A DNA stretch of 64,000 nucleotides from an uncultured delta proteobacterium (lineage in GTDB: Bacteria; Desulfobacterota; Binatia; Binatales; Binataceae). Shown one piece after another: positions 4,931-10,163 of this stretch. Location of the stretch: contig CAWFIF010000001.1 of the NCBI GenBank assembly GCA_963815835.1, positions 772,807 to 836,806 of the forward strand, given 5' to 3'. Numbering within the stretch: position 1 is the stretch's first letter; each line of letters begins with the position of its first letter. The translations under genes and the position numbers were made by a program. The notes under the pieces were generated by a model, which did no database searches, was not told where the DNA came from, and was given only the letters and a program-made list of their open reading frames with translations.

Positions 4931-6694
4931 ATGATCTCGAAAACCATTGAAAAGCCCAAGGGTGAATGGCGGGTCGCTCCCAATCTCCTCGACTACGAGA
5001 AGGTTTGTGCGGAGTTCTCCTGGGATGCGGCGCGACGCGAACTCGACGGCTTGCCCTGCGGACGCGGGCTGAACATCGCTCATGAGGCGATCGATCGCCA
5101 CGCCATGGGCGCACTGCGCGATCATCTCGCGTTGCGATGGATCGGCAAGCGCGGAGAGGTGCGCGACTTCTCATATGGTGAGCTGCGCGCGCTCACCAAT
5201 CGCTTCGCGAACGTGCTGAGACGACTGGGCCTCGCCAAGGGCGAGCGCGTGTTCCTGCTGGCCGGACGGATTTCCGAGTTGTACATCAGCGCGTTGGGGA
5301 CGTTGAAAAATGGCAACGTGTTCTGCCCGCTCTTCTCTGCCTTCGGCCCGGAACCGATTCGCCAACGAATTGGCATCGGCGATGGACGCGTGCTGGTGAC
5401 GACCCCGATGCTCTACAAACGCAAGGTCGCCGACCTGCGCGCCTCGCTCCCGGGCCTCAAGCATGTGCTCTTGGTCGGCACCCCGGAGGAGATCCGCGCG
5501 ATTCCCAACACACTCGATTTCCATCAGTTAATGAACGAGGCGACAAACGATTTCGAAATCCCACCGACCGATCCCGAGGATCTCGCGCTGCTTCACTTCA
5601 CCAGCGGCACCACCGGCAAGCCCAAAGGCGCGATGCATGTGCATCAGGCCGTCGTCGCGCATCACAAGACCGGCCAATTCGCGCTCGACTTTCACCCCGA
5701 TGACATTTTCTGGTGCACTGCGGATCCGGGGTGGATCACCGGGACGTCATACGGAATCATCGCACCGCTCACCAACGGCGTTACCAGTATTATCGACGAG
5801 GCGGAATTCGACGCCGAGCGATGGTACGCGCTGATACAGAGTCAGAAGGTTACTATCTGGTACACCGCGCCAACCGCGGTGCGCATGATGATGAAGATCG
5901 GCACCGAGGTGATTCGCAAATACGATCTTCGCAGTCTCCGCTTCATCGCCAGCGTGGGCGAACCGCTCAATCCGGAGGCGGTGGTGTGGGGACAGGAAGC
6001 ATTCGGGCTTCCGATTCATGACAACTGGTGGCAGACCGAGACCGGCGGCATCATGATCTCGAATTACGCCGGGATGGATATTCGGCCGGGGTCGATGGGC
6101 CGCCCGCTTCCCGGCATCGAGGCGGGGCTCGTCCGCCGTCATAAAGACGGCAGTGTCGAAGAGGTTCGCGAAGCCGGGGTCGAAGGCGAACTCGTGCTGC
6201 GGCCGGGCTGGCCTTCGATGTTTCGCGGCTACTTGAACGAAGAAGAGCGCTATCGCAAGTGCTTCGCGGACGGATGGTACCTCACAGGCGACCTCGCGAA
6301 GCGCGATCACGACGGCTACTTCTGGTTCGTCAGCCGCGCCGACGATGTGATCAAATCGTCGGGTCATCTGATCGGGCCATTTGAAGTGGAGAGCACGTTG
6401 ATGGAGCATCCAGCGGTTGCCGAGGCCGGCGTTATCGGCAAGCCGGATCCGATGGCTGGTGAAATCGTGAAAGCATTCGTCGCGCTCAAGCCGGCATTCG
6501 CGGCGAGCGAAGAGTTACGCAGCGACCTGATTGGCTTCGCGCGCAAGCGCTTGGGCGCGGTGGTCGCGCCGAAAGAAATCGATTTCATCGCTAGCGTACC
6601 GAAGACTCGTAGCGGAAAAATCATGCGCCGGTTGCTCAAAGCTCGCGAACTCGGCCTTCCCGAAGGCGACACCTCGACACTGGAGAGCTTGTAG
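4931..6694 (+). CDS. AMP-forming acyl-CoA synthetase (acetate/propionate--CoA ligase family)
   Basis: 587 aa with AMP-binding signature [10 protein letters not shown] and C-terminal [11 protein letters not shown] motif. Overall similarity to AcsA-type synthetases. Confidence 0.8.
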
Positions 6695-6697
6695 AAC

Positions 6698-7701
6698 ATG
6701 GCGCTGCGACCAAGCATCGTGACCTCGAATGTCGACGCCGAGCACGCGCTGGCGCTATTGCGGGAGATGGTCCGTATCCGCCGCTTCGAAGAAAAATGCG
6801 CTGAGTTGTACAGTGCCACGAAGATTCGCGGATTCCTTCATCTATATATCGGTGAGGAGGCCGTCGCCGTCGGCGCGATGCGCGCGCTCACGCCGGAAGA
6901 CTCCGTCGTCGCGACCTACCGCGAGCACGGTCACGCGCTGTTGCGCGGGATTCCGGCCGGCGCGATCATGGCCGAGATGTTCGGCAAGCAGGAAGGATGC
7001 AGCCGGGGCCGCGGCGGCTCGATGCATCTGTTCGACGTGAAGCATCGATTTTTCGGCGACAATGCGATCGTGGGAGGCGGGCTGCCACTCGCGGTTGGCG
7101 TCGCGCTGGCCGACAAGCTGCAACATCGATCGAGAATCACCGCTTGCTTCTTCGGCGACGGCGCCGTGGCCGAGGGTGAGTTCCACGAATGCATGAACCT
7201 CGCGGCGTTGTGGAAGCTTCCGGTCCTGATGTGCTGCGAGAACAACCTCTATGCGATGGGCACGGCGCTGAAGCGAGCGCAATCGCAGACCGATCTGAGC
7301 CTCAAGGCGGCGGCATACGAAATGCCCTCGTGGCCGGTCGATGGGATGGACGTCGTAGCATGCGAGGAAGCCGCACATCGAGCCGCGCTCGCAGTGCGCT
7401 CCGGGGAGGGTCCCTGCTTTCTCGAATTCCGCACTTATCGCTTCCGCGCGCGCACTCGATGTACGATCCGCAGCTCTATCGCGACAAGCGCGAAGTCGAG
7501 GAATGGAAGAAACGCGATCCCGTCACAACCTTTCAGAATCGCCTGACGGCCGAGGACATTTTGGACGACGCAAACATGAAGCGCATCGAAGATGAGGTCG
7601 CGGCAGAAATCGAAAAAGCGATCGCATTCGCCGAAGCCGGCACCTGGGAACCGGTCGAAGAACTGACGCGTTTCGCATACTCGGAAAAAAAGCCGACATG
7701 A
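6698..7701 (+). CDS. TPP-dependent 2-oxoacid (acetoin/pyruvate) dehydrogenase E1 alpha subunit; single-nucleotide frameshift near 7447-7452
   Basis: N-terminal ORF 6698-7546 carries the TPP-binding [12 protein letters not shown] motif and ends ...LEFRTYRFR. The C-terminus continues in the +2 frame ([16 protein letters not shown] 7189-7701). The frames join inside a gcgcgcgc run. Confidence 0.75.
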
Positions 7702-8696
7702 GCTCGGACACGAACAAAATCAAGATCACGTATCGCGAGGCGATGCGTCAGGCGATTCGAGCGATGAATCGCGACGCGCGCGTCTTCCTGATGGGCGAAG
7801 ATGTCGGCGCGTACGGCGGATGCTACGCGGTGAGCAAGGGACTGCTGGAGGAATTCGGTCCCGATCGCATCCGCGACACGCCCCTCTCTGAATCGGCCTT
7901 CGTCGGTGCGGGAATCGGCGCAGCGATGAACGGCATGCGGCCGATTGTGGAAATCATGACGGTCAACTTCAGCCTGCTGGCGCTCGATCAAATCATCAAC
8001 AACGCGGCGACTATCCTTCACATGTCGGGCGGCCAGTTCAATATTCCGCTCGTGATCAGGATGACGACCGGCGCTGGCCGTCAACTCGCGGCGCAACATT
8101 CGCATAGCCTCGAAGGATGGTAAGCGCACATTCCGGGCATCAAGGTGCTTGCGCCGGCAACGTTGGAGGACGCGCGCGGGATGTTATGGACTGCGCTCGA
8201 GGATCCCGACCCGGTGCTCATCTTCGAGCATGGCACGCTCTATAACTTTGAAGGTGAGATGTCCGCCGATGCGGGCGCGGTCGAGATTTCGAAGGCCGCG
8301 GTGCGGCGCGCGGGCACGGATGTGAGCCTGATCACTTATGGTGGCACGCTCGGCAAGACGATACAGGCGGGGGAGCAGCTTGCCACGTCGGGCATCGATG
8401 CTGAGGTGATTGACCTTCGCACGCTGCGGCCGCTCGATACCGAGACGATTCTCGATTCGGTGACGCGCACGCATCGCGCGGTCATCATCGATGAAGGATG
8501 GCGTAGCGGCAGCATCTCGGCGGAGATCAGCGCGCGCGTCATGGAGGGCGGATTCTACGAACTGGACCTGCCGGTAGAACGCATCTGCAGCGCCGAAGTT
8601 CCCATACCTTATGCCAAACATCTTGAGGACGCCGCACTGCCGCAAGCTTCAACGATCGTCGAAACCGTGACGCGCATGGTGGGCGCTCATGGCTGA
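7698..8696 (+). CDS. 2-oxoacid dehydrogenase E1 beta subunit; in-frame TAA at 8121-8123
   Basis: ORFs 7698-8123 and 8145-8696 are in the same frame, separated by one TAA (..[19 protein letters not shown]..). Family consensus has Tyr/Phe (W-F/Y-AHIPG) at that codon. Transketolase-like pyrimidine and C-terminal domains are present. Confidence 0.75.
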
Positions 8697-9921
8697 TTTC
8701 CTCATGCCCTCGCTCGGCGCCGATATGGAAGTCGGCACCGTTCTGCAATGGCTGGTAAAGCCGGGTGACGCGGTGAAGCGCGGCGATATCGTCGCGGTGG
8801 TGGATACCGAGAAGGCCACTATCGAGTTGGAAATCTTCCAGACCGGCGTCATCCAAAAGATCGTCGTGCCCGAGGGCGAAAAGGTTCCTGTCGGTACGCT
8901 ACTGGCGGTGCTTGCGGTGGACGGCGAGGTCGTGCCCGCGCCTCCCGAAGTTAAACCTAAACCCGTCACCCTCACAGCGCCCCCGCCTGCTCCTGCGCCG
9001 GTCATTGCGAAGCCTCCGGCGAGGCCTGCCGCGCCCCATCGCATGCATATCTCCCCGCTCGCGATGCGCGTTGCGATGGATCTGAAGGTCAACCTCGCTA
9101 CCGTCAAGGGCACCGGCCCAGATGGCGCGATCACCAAGGCCGATGTCGAGCGCGCCGCGAAAGCTCCGCCGATGCCTCCTACGCCTCCAGCTGCCGCAAC
9201 TGTTGAAGCCCCAGCACCAGCAGCGCCCGCGAAGCCTGCAGTCGCACCTATTGACCATCATGCGGCGATGCGGAAAGTAATCGCGGCGGCGATGGCGCGC
9301 TCCAAGCGCGAGATACCGCATTACTACCTCGGCACGCACATCGACATGAGCAAAGCGATGGCCTGGCTGCAGGCCGAGAACCTCAAACGCCCGGTGACCG
9401 AACGGCTCCTCTATTCGGTACTGCTACTGAAAGCCGTCGCGCTCGCGGTTCACGAAGTACCCGAGATGAACGGCTTCTGGATCGATGGCGCGTCCAAACG
9501 GAGCGAGGCGGTTCACGTTGGCGTTGCAATATCGATTCGCCAGGGCGGGCTCATCGCGCCGGCGATCCACGATGTCGACAAAAAAAGCCTCGGCGAGATC
9601 ATGGTGAGTTTGCGGGATCTGGTAAAGCGCGTGCGCGCCGGCGTGCTTCGCAGTTCGGAAATTGCGGAGGCGACGATCACGGTCACCAGCCTCGGCGAGC
9701 AGGGCGTCGAAACTGTCTTCGGGGTCATCTACCCGCCGCAGGTCGCGCTGGTCGGGTTCGGCAAGATCGTCGAACAGGCGTGGGCGCGGGACGGTATGGT
9801 CGGCGCACGGCCTATTATGATGGCGAGCCTGTCGGGCGACCATCGCGCGAGCGACGGTCATCGCGGCGGATTGTTCGTTGCAGCCATCGAGCGTCTACTA
9901 CAGGAGCCGGAGAAGCTGTGA
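8689..9921 (+). CDS. dihydrolipoamide acyltransferase E2 (lipoyl domain + E3-binding domain + catalytic domain)
   Basis: Lipoyl-lysine motif [11 protein letters not shown], Ala/Pro linkers, PSBD ([26 protein letters not shown]) and catalytic DHRASDG motif. Confidence 0.85.
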
Positions 9922-10163
9922 CCGACGACGAGATCAAAACGCTCTATCTACGTGAGCTGCATAAGGTAGCACCCGAGGTCGAGTTAAGCGAAATCGATCC
10001 GGAGATCGATTTGCGCGAGCAGATCGATCTTGACTCGATGGACATCCTGAATCTCGCGATCGCGATCCACGAGGCGACAGGAGTTGATATTCCGGAAGCG
10101 GACTATCCGCAGATGGCGAGCTTGAACGGCTGCATGGCGTACCTGCATTCGCGCACCAGTTAG
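9918..10163 (+). CDS. acyl-carrier-protein-like phosphopantetheine-binding protein
   Basis: GTG start overlaps the E2 stop (GTGA). The 81-aa product contains the carrier-protein Ser motif IDLDSMDILNLAIAI. Confidence 0.55.
   Translation: MTDDEIKTLYLRELHKVAPEVELSEIDPEIDLREQIDLDSMDILNLAIAIHEATGVDIPEADYPQMASLNGCMAYLHSRTS

What the first reader, a model, noticed from the sequence alone, without database searches (positions are those of the whole stretch)
4931..10163. Acyl-CoA synthetase + E1alpha/E1beta/E2 2-oxoacid dehydrogenase + translationally coupled carrier protein operon, with two lesions
The five genes are tightly packed (3-nt gaps or overlaps) with no E3 gene. A small ACP-like gene (DSMD Ser motif) starts on the E2 stop codon, an unusual partner for an acetoin/pyruvate dehydrogenase. 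E1alpha has a 1-nt frameshift inside a gcgcgcgc run. E1beta has an in-frame TAA where the family has Tyr/Phe (W-F/Y-AHIPG), a single-base change. Either the complex is being inactivated or the assembly carries errors. If intact, it may feed an acyl unit to a carrier protein rather than act as a classical catabolic complex.
Basis: partly seen in the sequence, partly recalled or inferred. Interest (0 to 1): 0.55.

Follow-up and report, generated by a model that had tools for sequence, protein, structure and literature searches.

The report
Stress-island pyruvate dehydrogenase with own carrier protein
This is one, probably recently broken, copy of a five-gene module (acetate-activating enzyme, pyruvate-dehydrogenase E1 alpha, E1 beta and E2, and a dedicated small carrier protein) that recurs unchanged in at least nine bacterial phyla, often next to stress genes, and that I could not find described in the literature.

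Summary
Positions 4931-10163 (+) encode an AcsA-type acetate-CoA ligase, PDH-type E1alpha, E1beta and E2, and an 81-aa carrier protein whose GTG start overlaps the E2 stop (GTGA). No E3 gene is present.

Both lesions are real in the sequence:
- E1alpha carries a 2-nt (GC) insertion, not a 1-nt change, compared with about 30 relatives.
- E1beta has TAA where all aligned relatives (about 30 loci) have TAC or TAT (Tyr).

The carrier protein is not incidental. The five genes are colinear in every related locus with enough flank. That covers 84 loci found through E2 or DNA similarity, in at least nine phyla and on four plasmids. It also covers 80 metagenome loci found through the carrier protein, where E2 lies directly upstream in 64 of 64. 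The module often sits next to universal-stress, Hsp20, ribosome-hibernation and BON genes.

The window copy lies beside IS debris. Its dN/dS (about 0.1) matches that of intact relatives, so the lesions are very recent or artefacts; I favour real, about 0.65-0.7. About 25 other genes checked in the window have full-length domain matches.

The mechanism is inferred, not shown. E1/E2 would oxidise pyruvate, using an E3 encoded elsewhere. The acetyl group would pass to a phosphopantetheine thiol, most plausibly the dedicated carrier protein. AcsA would link this to acetate.

The parts
4931..6694 (+). AcsA-type AMP-forming acetate-CoA ligase, 587 aa, intact
   Evidence: NF003313 at 930 bits against a cut-off of 729. 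Best solved relative is a 572-aa acetyl-CoA synthetase, 9g79, at 568 bits. NWWQTETGG (acetate-pocket Trp) and [11 protein letters not shown] (catalytic Lys) are present in the translation.
6698..7701 (+). PDH-type E1 alpha, disrupted by a frameshift
   Evidence: The two frames are visible. After repair, TIGR03182 scores 460 bits against a cut-off of 394.
7445..7453 (+). CGCGCGCGC run carrying a 2-nt (GC) insertion relative to all relatives
   Evidence: Alignment to about 30 loci; position fixed.
7698..8696 (+). PDH-type E1 beta with an in-frame stop
   Evidence: NF006667 at 411 bits against a cut-off of 321, with Tyr substituted for the stop.
8121..8123 (+). TAA nonsense codon where relatives have TAC or TAT (Tyr)
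8689..9921 (+). E2 dihydrolipoyl acyltransferase, 410 aa, intact: lipoyl domain, E3/E1-binding domain, catalytic domain with DHRASDG
   Evidence: Pfam domains. Best solved relatives are PDH E2 chains. The C-terminus ends ...LQEPEKL, 20 residues after DHRxxDG.
9918..10163 (+). Dedicated 81-aa carrier protein, start overlapping the E2 stop (GTGA), Ser in DLDSMD
   Evidence: PF00550 at 28.4 bits. Below the cut-off of every curated ACP model. Family alignment and junction statistics; exclusive association with E2.
4477..4563 (+). 3' end of the upstream 129-aa gene; one copy of an imperfect direct repeat of about 85 nt that brackets the cassette
10241..10325 (+). Decayed second copy of that repeat (83-85% identity, 1-nt indel), just downstream of the carrier gene
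10629..11889 (+). IS3-family transposase remnant with at least 3 lesions (in-frame stop at 10779-10781 and two frame breaks in the integrase part)
   Evidence: ORF layout; rve domains on the 11186-11686 fragment.

Best explanation
SHOWN:
- The region is one copy of a conserved, horizontally mobile five-gene module: AcsA-type acetate-CoA ligase, PDH-type E1alpha, E1beta, E2, and a dedicated carrier protein translationally coupled to E2.
- The module never has an E3 gene within the flanks held (up to 10 kb each side).
- It lies mostly in neighbourhoods rich in universal-stress, Hsp20, ribosome-hibernation, BON and nucleotide-salvage genes.
- In this window the copy is disabled by two point lesions in adjacent genes: a GC insertion in E1alpha and Tyr to TAA in E1beta. 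It sits at the edge of a zone of IS debris.

INFERRED ABOUT THE LESIONS:
- They are real and very recent, with probability about 0.65-0.7.

INFERRED MECHANISM OF AN INTACT MODULE:
1. E1 decarboxylates pyruvate and reductively acetylates the lipoyl arm of E2.
2. E2 hands the acetyl group to a phosphopantetheine thiol. This is most plausibly the arm of the co-translated carrier protein, giving acetyl-carrier protein; CoA is the alternative acceptor.
3. An E3 encoded elsewhere in the genome re-oxidises the lipoyl arm.
4. AcsA connects the same acetyl-thioester pool to acetate. It could act as a second entry route (acetate plus ATP), or run in reverse to yield ATP from AMP and PPi.
For: Domains and family scores.

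Conservation:
- Colinearity in 82 loci from at least nine phyla and four plasmids.
- The carrier protein is also present in the two Chitinophagales loci that tblastn had missed.
- Carrier-centred metagenome sample: E2 upstream in 64/64, E1beta 25/25, E1alpha 17/18, ACS 13/13.
- 4-nt overlap of E2 stop and carrier start in 59 of 75 loci; the carrier Ser is invariant.
- All five genes are under purifying selection, omega 0.08-0.13.

E3: absent from all loci.

Neighbours: tandem Usp in 33 loci, plus HPF-CSD, Hsp20, BON, RtcB, PolX, PRPP synthetase and NAPRTase.

Lesions:
- Alignment to relatives.
- Omega on the window lineage equals that of intact relatives.
- About 25 other window genes have full-length domain matches.
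- IS3 remnant, truncated genes and a decayed repeat lie directly downstream.
- Truncated extra copies of the cassette occur in relatives: L005, L014 and L065.

Precedent for E1/E2 systems that prime a carrier protein while borrowing E3:
- QncN/L/M and SclQ1-4 (PMC6335953).
- Pepteridine Plu2796 (PMC5384830).

E2 C-terminus: it is 2 residues shorter than in the human and fungal E2 chains aligned here, in 72 of 75 loci. This may open the CoA side of the active site to a protein substrate.
Against: - No biochemical or expression data exist for any member.
- The acceptor of the acetyl group is not shown.
- AcsA looks like an ordinary CoA ligase: it passes the equivalog cut-off and has all motifs. 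CoA could therefore be the only acceptor, with the carrier protein doing something else.
- No conserved consumer of acetyl-carrier protein is seen nearby. A PP-binding/AMP-binding/acyltransferase fusion occurs in only 7 loci.
- No E2-carrier or ACS-carrier fusion was found among the 150 best family representatives.
- Lesions as artefacts cannot be excluded. Several public long-read MAGs of the same clade show many frame breaks in these very genes: L018, L023, L038.
- The hypoxia/stress role rests on neighbourhood only. The B. cenocepacia lxa locus paper does not list this cassette.
Confidence: 0.55

Rival explanations
1. The two lesions are sequencing or assembly errors, and the organism has a functional operon.
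For: - dN/dS on the window lineage is as low as in intact relatives.
- One lesion is a dinucleotide-repeat length change, a typical error context.
- Public long-read MAGs of the same clade (L018, L023, L038, L011) carry many frame breaks in the same genes.
Against: - A TAC-to-TAA substitution is not a typical indel-type error.
- About 25 other genes checked in the window are full length.
- Both lesions fall in adjacent genes of one operon, which fits relaxation after a first hit. By my estimate, random errors would do this with probability about 0.06-0.15.
- The copy adjoins IS and gene debris.
Confidence: 0.32
2. AcsA, not E2, loads the carrier protein, acting as an acetate:carrier-protein ligase like other adenylating enzymes that load carrier proteins. 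E2 would then work from acetyl-carrier protein, or independently.
For: - Adenylate-forming enzymes commonly load carrier proteins (general knowledge).
- AcsA is invariably part of the module.
Against: - The carrier gene is always next to E2 and usually overlaps it, at the far end of the operon from acsA.
- AcsA passes the curated acetate-CoA ligase equivalog cut-off. It is 568 bits to a solved acetyl-CoA synthetase of the same 570-aa type.
Confidence: 0.15
3. The module is an energy-conserving pyruvate-to-acetate route for survival without growth. PDH makes the acetyl thioester, and AcsA runs in reverse to make ATP from AMP and PPi. The carrier protein serves as a private CoA surrogate. This is compatible with the best explanation and specifies the direction of AcsA.
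For: - Stress-type neighbourhoods with Usp, Hsp20 and HPF.
- Frequent neighbours that release PPi or AMP: phosphoribosyltransferases, NAPRTase, PRPP synthetase.
- A Crp/Fnr regulator lies near the cassette in Leisingera.
- The AMP-forming reaction is near equilibrium (general knowledge).
Against: - PDH produces NADH through E3, which is unfavourable without an electron sink.
- There is no direct evidence of low-oxygen induction.
- Reverse operation of AMP-forming ACS is rare.
Confidence: 0.2
4. It is a building-block module of a secondary-metabolite pathway, of the QncN/L/M type.
For: The parts list is the same: a ThDP-dependent E1, a lipoyl/acyltransferase E2 and a stand-alone carrier protein, with E3 borrowed.
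Against: - No NRPS, PKS or condensation genes recur in the flanks of 82 loci.
- The E1 subunits score as genuine PDH E1 above cut-off.
- AcsA has no counterpart in those pathways.
- The distribution across at least nine phyla in stress-gene neighbourhoods does not fit.
Confidence: 0.04
5. It is an ordinary catabolic pyruvate or acetoin dehydrogenase, and the carrier gene is a chance neighbour.
For: - PDH-type scores.
- Sigma-54-type promoters upstream in Binatia relatives resemble the regulation of acetoin operons (the resemblance is from general knowledge).
Against: - The carrier protein is present in all loci with flank. Its family was found only next to this E2: 64/64.
- It is translationally coupled to E2 and under purifying selection.
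- No E3 is ever present in the locus.
Confidence: 0.03

Closest known systems
Pyruvate dehydrogenase complex with heterotetrameric E1 (alpha-proteobacterial / mitochondrial / Gram-positive type: PdhA, PdhB, PdhC, Lpd)
   Same: - E1alpha and E1beta pass the curated PDH models.
- E2 has lipoyl, peripheral-subunit-binding and catalytic domains, with the DHRxxDG motif.
- Best solved relatives are PDH E2 chains.
   Different: - No E3 gene in the locus in any of 84 loci.
- E2 is below the PDH E2 equivalog cut-off: 255 bits against 445.
- The E2 C-terminus is 2 residues shorter than the human and fungal E2 chains aligned.
- There is always an acetate-CoA ligase gene in front and a dedicated carrier gene behind.
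- It is an accessory copy, carried on plasmids and in stress-gene neighbourhoods.
Carrier-protein-priming E1/E2 systems of secondary metabolism: QncN/QncL/QncM, SclQ1-4, pepteridine Plu2796 (PMC6335953, PMC5384830; Peng et al. 2012 as cited there)
   Same: - A ThDP-dependent E1, a lipoyl-bearing E2-like acyltransferase and a dedicated carrier protein.
- E3 is supplied from elsewhere.
- The acyl group is proposed or shown to go to the carrier arm instead of CoA.
   Different: - Those systems sit in NRPS or PKS clusters.
- The Qnc and Scl systems use ketose phosphates to make glycolicacyl units.
- They have no AcsA.
- Here the E1 is a bona fide PDH type and no assembly-line genes recur nearby.
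- Sequence relationship to QncL or QncM was not tested.
AcsA-type acetyl-CoA synthetase (about 570 aa; NF003313; solved structure 9g79)
   Same: Full-length match above the curated cut-off, with the acetate-pocket Trp and the catalytic Lys motifs.
   Different: Here it is the first gene of an operon with PDH genes and a carrier protein. Its physiological direction and thiol acceptor are unknown.
Usp-rich low-oxygen or dormancy loci, for example the Burkholderia cenocepacia lxa locus (PMC3721108)
   Same: The neighbourhoods of the module share Usp and Hsp20 genes with such loci.
   Different: The lxa gene list does not contain this cassette. No expression data link the cassette to low oxygen.

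Membership tests
Pyruvate dehydrogenase complex (E1 alpha2beta2 type) | E1alpha matches the curated PDH E1alpha model above its cut-off | tested here: met
   TIGR03182 at 459.7 bits against 393.85, on the sequence with the GC insertion removed. The ThDP motif GDG...NN is present.
Pyruvate dehydrogenase complex (E1 alpha2beta2 type) | E1beta matches the curated PDH E1beta model above its cut-off | tested here: met
   NF006667 at 410.9 bits against 321, with Tyr in place of the stop.
Pyruvate dehydrogenase complex (E1 alpha2beta2 type) | E2 with lipoyl-lysine, subunit-binding domain and catalytic His (DHRxxDG) | tested here: met
   Pfam PF00364, PF02817 and PF00198. DTEKA and DHRASDG are in the translation. 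However, the equivalog model TIGR01349 scores 255 bits against a cut-off of 445.
Pyruvate dehydrogenase complex (E1 alpha2beta2 type) | E3 (dihydrolipoamide dehydrogenase) encoded with the complex | tested here: not met
   No CxNxGCxPSK motif in the window or in 84 loci. The window's Pyr_redox_2 protein is an NDH-2.
Pyruvate dehydrogenase complex (E1 alpha2beta2 type) | Intact reading frames in this copy | tested here: not met
   +2 insertion in E1alpha and TAA in E1beta.
Pyruvate dehydrogenase complex (E1 alpha2beta2 type) | Pyruvate as substrate and acetyl-CoA as product | not testable with these tools
   Requires enzyme assays.
AMP-forming acetate-CoA ligase (AcsA, NF003313) | Curated equivalog score, acetate-pocket Trp and catalytic Lys motif | tested here: met
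   930.2 bits against 729. NWWQTETGG and [11 protein letters not shown] are in the translation. 568 bits to 9g79.
Carrier-protein-priming E1/E2 systems (QncN/L/M type) | E1-like, E2-like and stand-alone carrier genes adjacent and co-conserved | tested here: met
Carrier-protein-priming E1/E2 systems (QncN/L/M type) | Embedded in an NRPS or PKS gene cluster that consumes the acyl-carrier protein | tested here: not met
   No such family among the recurrent flank clusters of 82 loci. Only a PP-binding/AMP-binding/acyltransferase fusion, in 7 loci.
Carrier-protein-priming E1/E2 systems (QncN/L/M type) | Acyl transfer from the lipoyl arm to the carrier protein | not testable with these tools
   Needs in vitro reconstitution and mass spectrometry.
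Fatty-acid-synthesis acyl carrier protein (AcpP and other curated ACP families) | Score above the cut-off of a curated ACP model | tested here: not met
   The best hit is NF002148 at 30.9 bits against 71, and all 12 hits are below cut-off. Only the generic PF00550 passes, at 28.4 bits against 20.8.
Acetoin dehydrogenase (AcoABCL) | AcoC-type E2 (lipoyl domain plus alpha/beta-hydrolase fold) and its own E3 (AcoL) | tested here: not met
   NF011457 matches only residues 4-159, at 78.5 bits against 307. No E3.

The most novel reading that the evidence does not exclude
The module is a previously unrecognised kind of pyruvate dehydrogenase in which E2 acetylates its own stoichiometric carrier protein instead of, or as well as, free CoA. 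The shortened E2 C-terminus may contribute by opening the CoA side of the active site. Together with AcsA, this would form a self-contained acetyl-thioester/acetate/ATP unit used by many soil and water bacteria during stress or oxygen limitation.
Probability: 0.3. Interest if true: 0.75.

Novelty: new variant of a known kind. Interest (0 to 1): 0.55.

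Why it matters
2-oxoacid dehydrogenase complexes are textbook enzymes whose acyl acceptor is CoA. The only known exceptions are a few natural-product pathways.

Here, a PDH-type complex always comes with its own carrier protein and an acetate-CoA ligase. The arrangement is conserved across at least nine phyla, carried on plasmids and placed among stress genes. That points to an unstudied piece of central-carbon or survival metabolism.

The idea is directly testable in cultivable hosts found here: Burkholderia savannae, Cupriavidus, Leisingera, Vogesella, Azospirillum, Gordonia and Amycolatopsis.

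For this window specifically, the practical message is that the copy is probably a fresh pseudogene beside IS debris. It should not be counted as a functional PDH in metabolic reconstruction without read support.

Tried and rejected
- **Rhizobial symbiosis-island origin.** This was my first guess and it is wrong. The closest relatives are Binataceae MAGs, 80-93% amino-acid identity.
- **Exact-protein look-up of the window's ACS.** Not on record.
- **B. cenocepacia lxa locus as the known home of the cassette.** The paper's gene list lacks it.
- **Literature.** Four searches for the gene combination found nothing relevant. The A. capsulatum nanoxia paper and the B. diazoefficiens PhaR paper concern other genes.
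- **Rosetta-stone fusions of the carrier protein with E2 or ACS.** None among the 150 best representatives. There is one carrier-OsmC fusion, but OsmC homologues occur in only one flank. A lipoyl-dependent peroxidase link is therefore unsupported.
- **Stop-codon recoding or programmed frameshift.** Rejected. TAA is a normal stop in the window, and no aligned relative has the extra GC.
- **E3 hidden in the window.** Rejected.
- **Second cassette copy in the window.** None.
- **Sigma-54 promoter in the window.** The only candidate (4692-4707) is within chance expectation: 9 matches found against 13.8 expected.
- **Internal sigma-70 promoters, terminators or Rfam elements.** Nothing above chance.
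- **Other split genes in the window.** Five same-frame neighbouring ORF pairs were checked. Four are separate genes with different, complete domains, and one pair has no Pfam match.
- **First carrier-protein profile scan of metagenomes.** Failed because the alignment was too diverse. It was repeated with six sequences.

Full report
**1. What is in the sequence**

Between 4931 and 10163 on the + strand lie five tightly packed genes:
- a 587-aa adenylate-forming enzyme (4931-6694);
- E1alpha (6698-7701);
- E1beta (7698-8696);
- E2 (8689-9921);
- an 81-aa carrier protein (9918-10163).

The junctions are a 3-nt gap, then overlaps of 4, 8 and 4 nt. The carrier GTG start overlaps the E2 TGA as GTGA.

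Family scans confirm the assignments:
- The first protein passes the curated acetate-CoA ligase equivalog NF003313 (930 bits, cut-off 729). It keeps the acetate-pocket Trp (NWWQTETGG) and the catalytic Lys motif.
- Repaired E1alpha passes TIGR03182 (460 bits, cut-off 394).
- Repaired E1beta passes NF006667 (411 bits, cut-off 321).
- E2 has lipoyl, subunit-binding and catalytic domains with DHRASDG.
- The small protein passes only the generic phosphopantetheine-attachment model. It fails every curated ACP family.

By these scores the E1 subunits are pyruvate-dehydrogenase type, not acetoin type. The best solved relatives are a 572-aa acetyl-CoA synthetase and PDH E2 chains.

**2. The two lesions**

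I aligned the two sites against about 30 related loci each.
- E1alpha: relatives read TTCCGCGCGCAC (F-R-A-H) and the window reads TTCCGCGCGCGCAC. The lesion is therefore a 2-nt GC expansion of a (CG)n run at 7445-7453, not a 1-nt change.
- E1beta: every aligned relative has TAC or TAT (Tyr) where the window has TAA (8121-8123).

TAA is used as an ordinary stop by rpoN, metK and other genes in the window. Recoding is therefore excluded, and no aligned relative has the extra GC.

**3. Real decay or artefact?**

This cannot be settled without reads, but the evidence leans towards real and recent.

For real decay:
- About 25 other genes in the window have full-length domain matches.
- I checked five same-frame neighbouring ORF pairs as possible split genes. 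Four are separate, complete genes and one pair has no Pfam match.
- The two lesions fall in adjacent genes of one operon.
- The cassette abuts a junk zone. It contains a decayed 85-nt repeat of the upstream gene's 3' end (10241-10325), an IS3 remnant with at least three lesions (10629-11889), a truncated gene, and a small DUF772 transposase relic with 22-nt inverted repeats.
- Relatives also carry truncated extra copies of the cassette: L005, L014 and L065.

For artefact:
- dN/dS between the window and its relatives is 0.08-0.12 for all five genes, the same as among intact relatives. Any decay is therefore too young to show. By my own rough estimate, two disabling events in 5.2 kb correspond to about 0.2% neutral divergence.
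- Several public long-read MAGs of this clade carry many frame breaks in the same genes.

I put real decay at about 0.65-0.7.

**4. The cassette is a conserved module**

- A scan of one genome per species with the E2 protein returned 80 loci. Four plasmid loci came from a DNA search.
- tblastn shows ACS, E1alpha, E1beta, E2 and the carrier protein in the same order in every locus with enough flank.
- The two Chitinophagales loci that seemed to lack the carrier protein have it, by HMM search.
- Hosts include Binatia (the closest, 80-93% identity), Chloroflexota, Acidobacteriota, Verrucomicrobiota, Actinomycetota, Nitrospirota, Desulfobacterota, Myxococcota, Bacteroidota, and alpha-, beta- and gamma-proteobacteria. 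In Leisingera, E1alpha and E1beta are fused.
- In 59 of 75 loci the E2 stop and the carrier start overlap by 4 nt, and the carrier Ser is invariant.

I then sampled from the carrier protein's side, with a carrier profile against metagenome contigs. Among those 80 loci, E2 lies directly upstream in 64 of 64 with enough sequence. E1beta is present in 25/25, E1alpha in 17/18 and ACS in 13/13.

At 50% clustering, the carrier family has 343 representatives with E-values of 1e-10 or better. Nearly all of the 150 best listed are stand-alone proteins of 80-110 aa.

No locus contains an E3-type motif.

The carrier protein is therefore an integral part of the module, not a chance neighbour.

**5. Context**

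Clustering of flanking ORFs within 6 kb, followed by Pfam, gave the recurrent neighbours:
- a tandem universal stress protein (33 loci);
- an ABC ATPase;
- an HPF/cold-shock-domain fusion;
- Hsp20, BON, RtcB and PolX;
- PRPP synthetase, phosphoribosyltransferases and NAPRTase;
- Glu/Leu dehydrogenase;
- in 7 loci, a PP-binding/AMP-binding/acyltransferase fusion.

Annotated plasmids show Hsp20, Usp, CBS and Crp/Fnr genes (Leisingera) or Hsp20 and a response regulator (Burkholderia savannae) beside the cassette.

The window itself has a Usp, a LonC-like protease and NAPRTase at 29.7-34.7 kb.

In Binatia relatives, a sigma-54-type promoter (TGGCAC-N5-TCGCT or TAGCT) lies 27-55 nt upstream of acsA, with a conserved upstream element. 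The window has no convincing equivalent.

These neighbourhoods resemble low-oxygen or dormancy loci. No expression data exist, however, and the B. cenocepacia lxa locus does not contain the cassette.

**6. Mechanism (inferred)**

- All catalytic motifs of a PDH E1/E2 are present, and E2 keeps its subunit-binding domain. The simplest reading is oxidative decarboxylation of pyruvate with an E3 encoded elsewhere in the genome.
- The carrier protein is exclusive to this E2, translationally coupled to it and under purifying selection. This argues that it is a stoichiometric partner of E2.
- Published systems show or propose that E1/E2-like enzymes can prime a carrier-protein arm instead of CoA while borrowing E3 (PMC6335953, PMC5384830).
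- A family-wide trait may be relevant. The E2 ends 20 residues after DHRxxDG in 72 of 75 loci. That is two residues shorter than the human and fungal E2 chains it aligns with. In canonical E2 proteins those terminal residues make the contacts between trimers (my own knowledge). A more open assembly would expose the CoA side of the active site to a protein substrate.
- AcsA looks like a normal acetate-specific CoA ligase. It could be a second route into the same acetyl-thioester pool. Alternatively, in reverse, it could harvest ATP from AMP and PPi. The direction is unknown.

I found no conserved consumer of acetyl-carrier protein and no informative fusions.

**7. Comparison and novelty**

The parts are known families. 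The arrangement is not one I could find described in four literature searches. That arrangement is a PDH-type E1/E2 with a dedicated carrier protein and an AcsA, without E3, conserved across phyla and placed in stress-gene neighbourhoods.

I classify it as a new variant of a known kind. The window copy is probably a fresh pseudogene of it.

Noticed in passing
L003 about 6215, and L004, L006, L050, L042, L038, L020 (27-55 nt upstream of the acsA start): A sigma-54-type promoter (TGGCAC-N5-TCGCT or TAGCT) at a fixed distance upstream of the cassette in Binatia relatives. The background rate for this score is 0.6-1.7% per 250 nt. A conserved element TGCGTTCGGATACA lies roughly 50-70 nt further upstream. 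The window lacks the proximal TGGCAC.
   Followed up: partly
window 4477-4563 and 10241-10325: An imperfect direct repeat of about 85 nt (83-85% identity, one 1-nt indel) brackets the cassette. The upstream copy is the 3' end of the 129-aa gene and the downstream copy is a relic. This suggests the cassette reached this position by recombination or duplication.
   Followed up: partly
window 10629-11889: An IS3-family transposase remnant with an in-frame stop (10779-10781) in the first ORF and two frame breaks in the integrase part.
   Followed up: partly
window 15801-16670; L014 6541-8942: An 870-bp element with 22-nt inverted repeats (95% complementary) encloses a DUF772 transposase fragment. 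It is 79-89% identical to sequence lying just upstream of a truncated cassette copy in a related MAG (L014).
   Followed up: partly
window 12463-13425 (-): A fragment resembling only the N-terminal third of a 1116-aa protein found near the cassette in L004 (38% amino-acid identity). It is probably a truncated gene.
   Followed up: no
E2 C-terminus: window 9859-9918; all loci: E2 proteins of this module end ...LQxPExL, exactly 20 residues after DHRxxDG, in 72 of 75 loci. That is two residues shorter than the human and fungal PDH E2 chains aligned. The end is also constrained by the overlapping carrier start codon.
   Followed up: partly
P0161 (239 aa, from the representative library): A single fusion of this carrier family to an OsmC/Ohr-like domain. 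An OsmC homologue occurs in the flank of only one locus (L021).
   Followed up: partly
window 29714-34740: Usp-domain protein (-), LonC-like AAA protease and NAPRTase. NAPRTase and Usp proteins are among the families that recur next to the cassette in other genomes. Here they lie 20 kb away, beyond the IS debris and a block of housekeeping genes.
   Followed up: partly
L005 7432-7742; L065 10001-10836; L014 9488-11529: Related Binataceae MAGs carry extra, truncated copies of the 3' part of the cassette (an E2 fragment plus the carrier gene, or E1beta residues 162-332 plus E2 plus the carrier gene). Two full or partial copies occur in one MAG (L014/L015, L004/L065).
   Followed up: partly
L018, L023, L038, L011: Public long-read MAG contigs of this clade show several frame breaks per gene in the same cassette. 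This warns that indel artefacts, or decay, are common in these records.
   Followed up: no
window 34703-39915 (-): Three large ORFs (727, 512 and 508 aa) without any Pfam match. At 38-40 kb, GC drops to 0.53 against 0.60 elsewhere, and AT skew is strongly positive at 36-40 kb. This may be foreign DNA.
   Followed up: no
window 17630-22077: An LptA-like gene, rpoN, a small ORF and rapZ lie on the + strand. The organism therefore encodes sigma-54, which fits the sigma-54 promoters seen upstream of the cassette in relatives.
   Followed up: no
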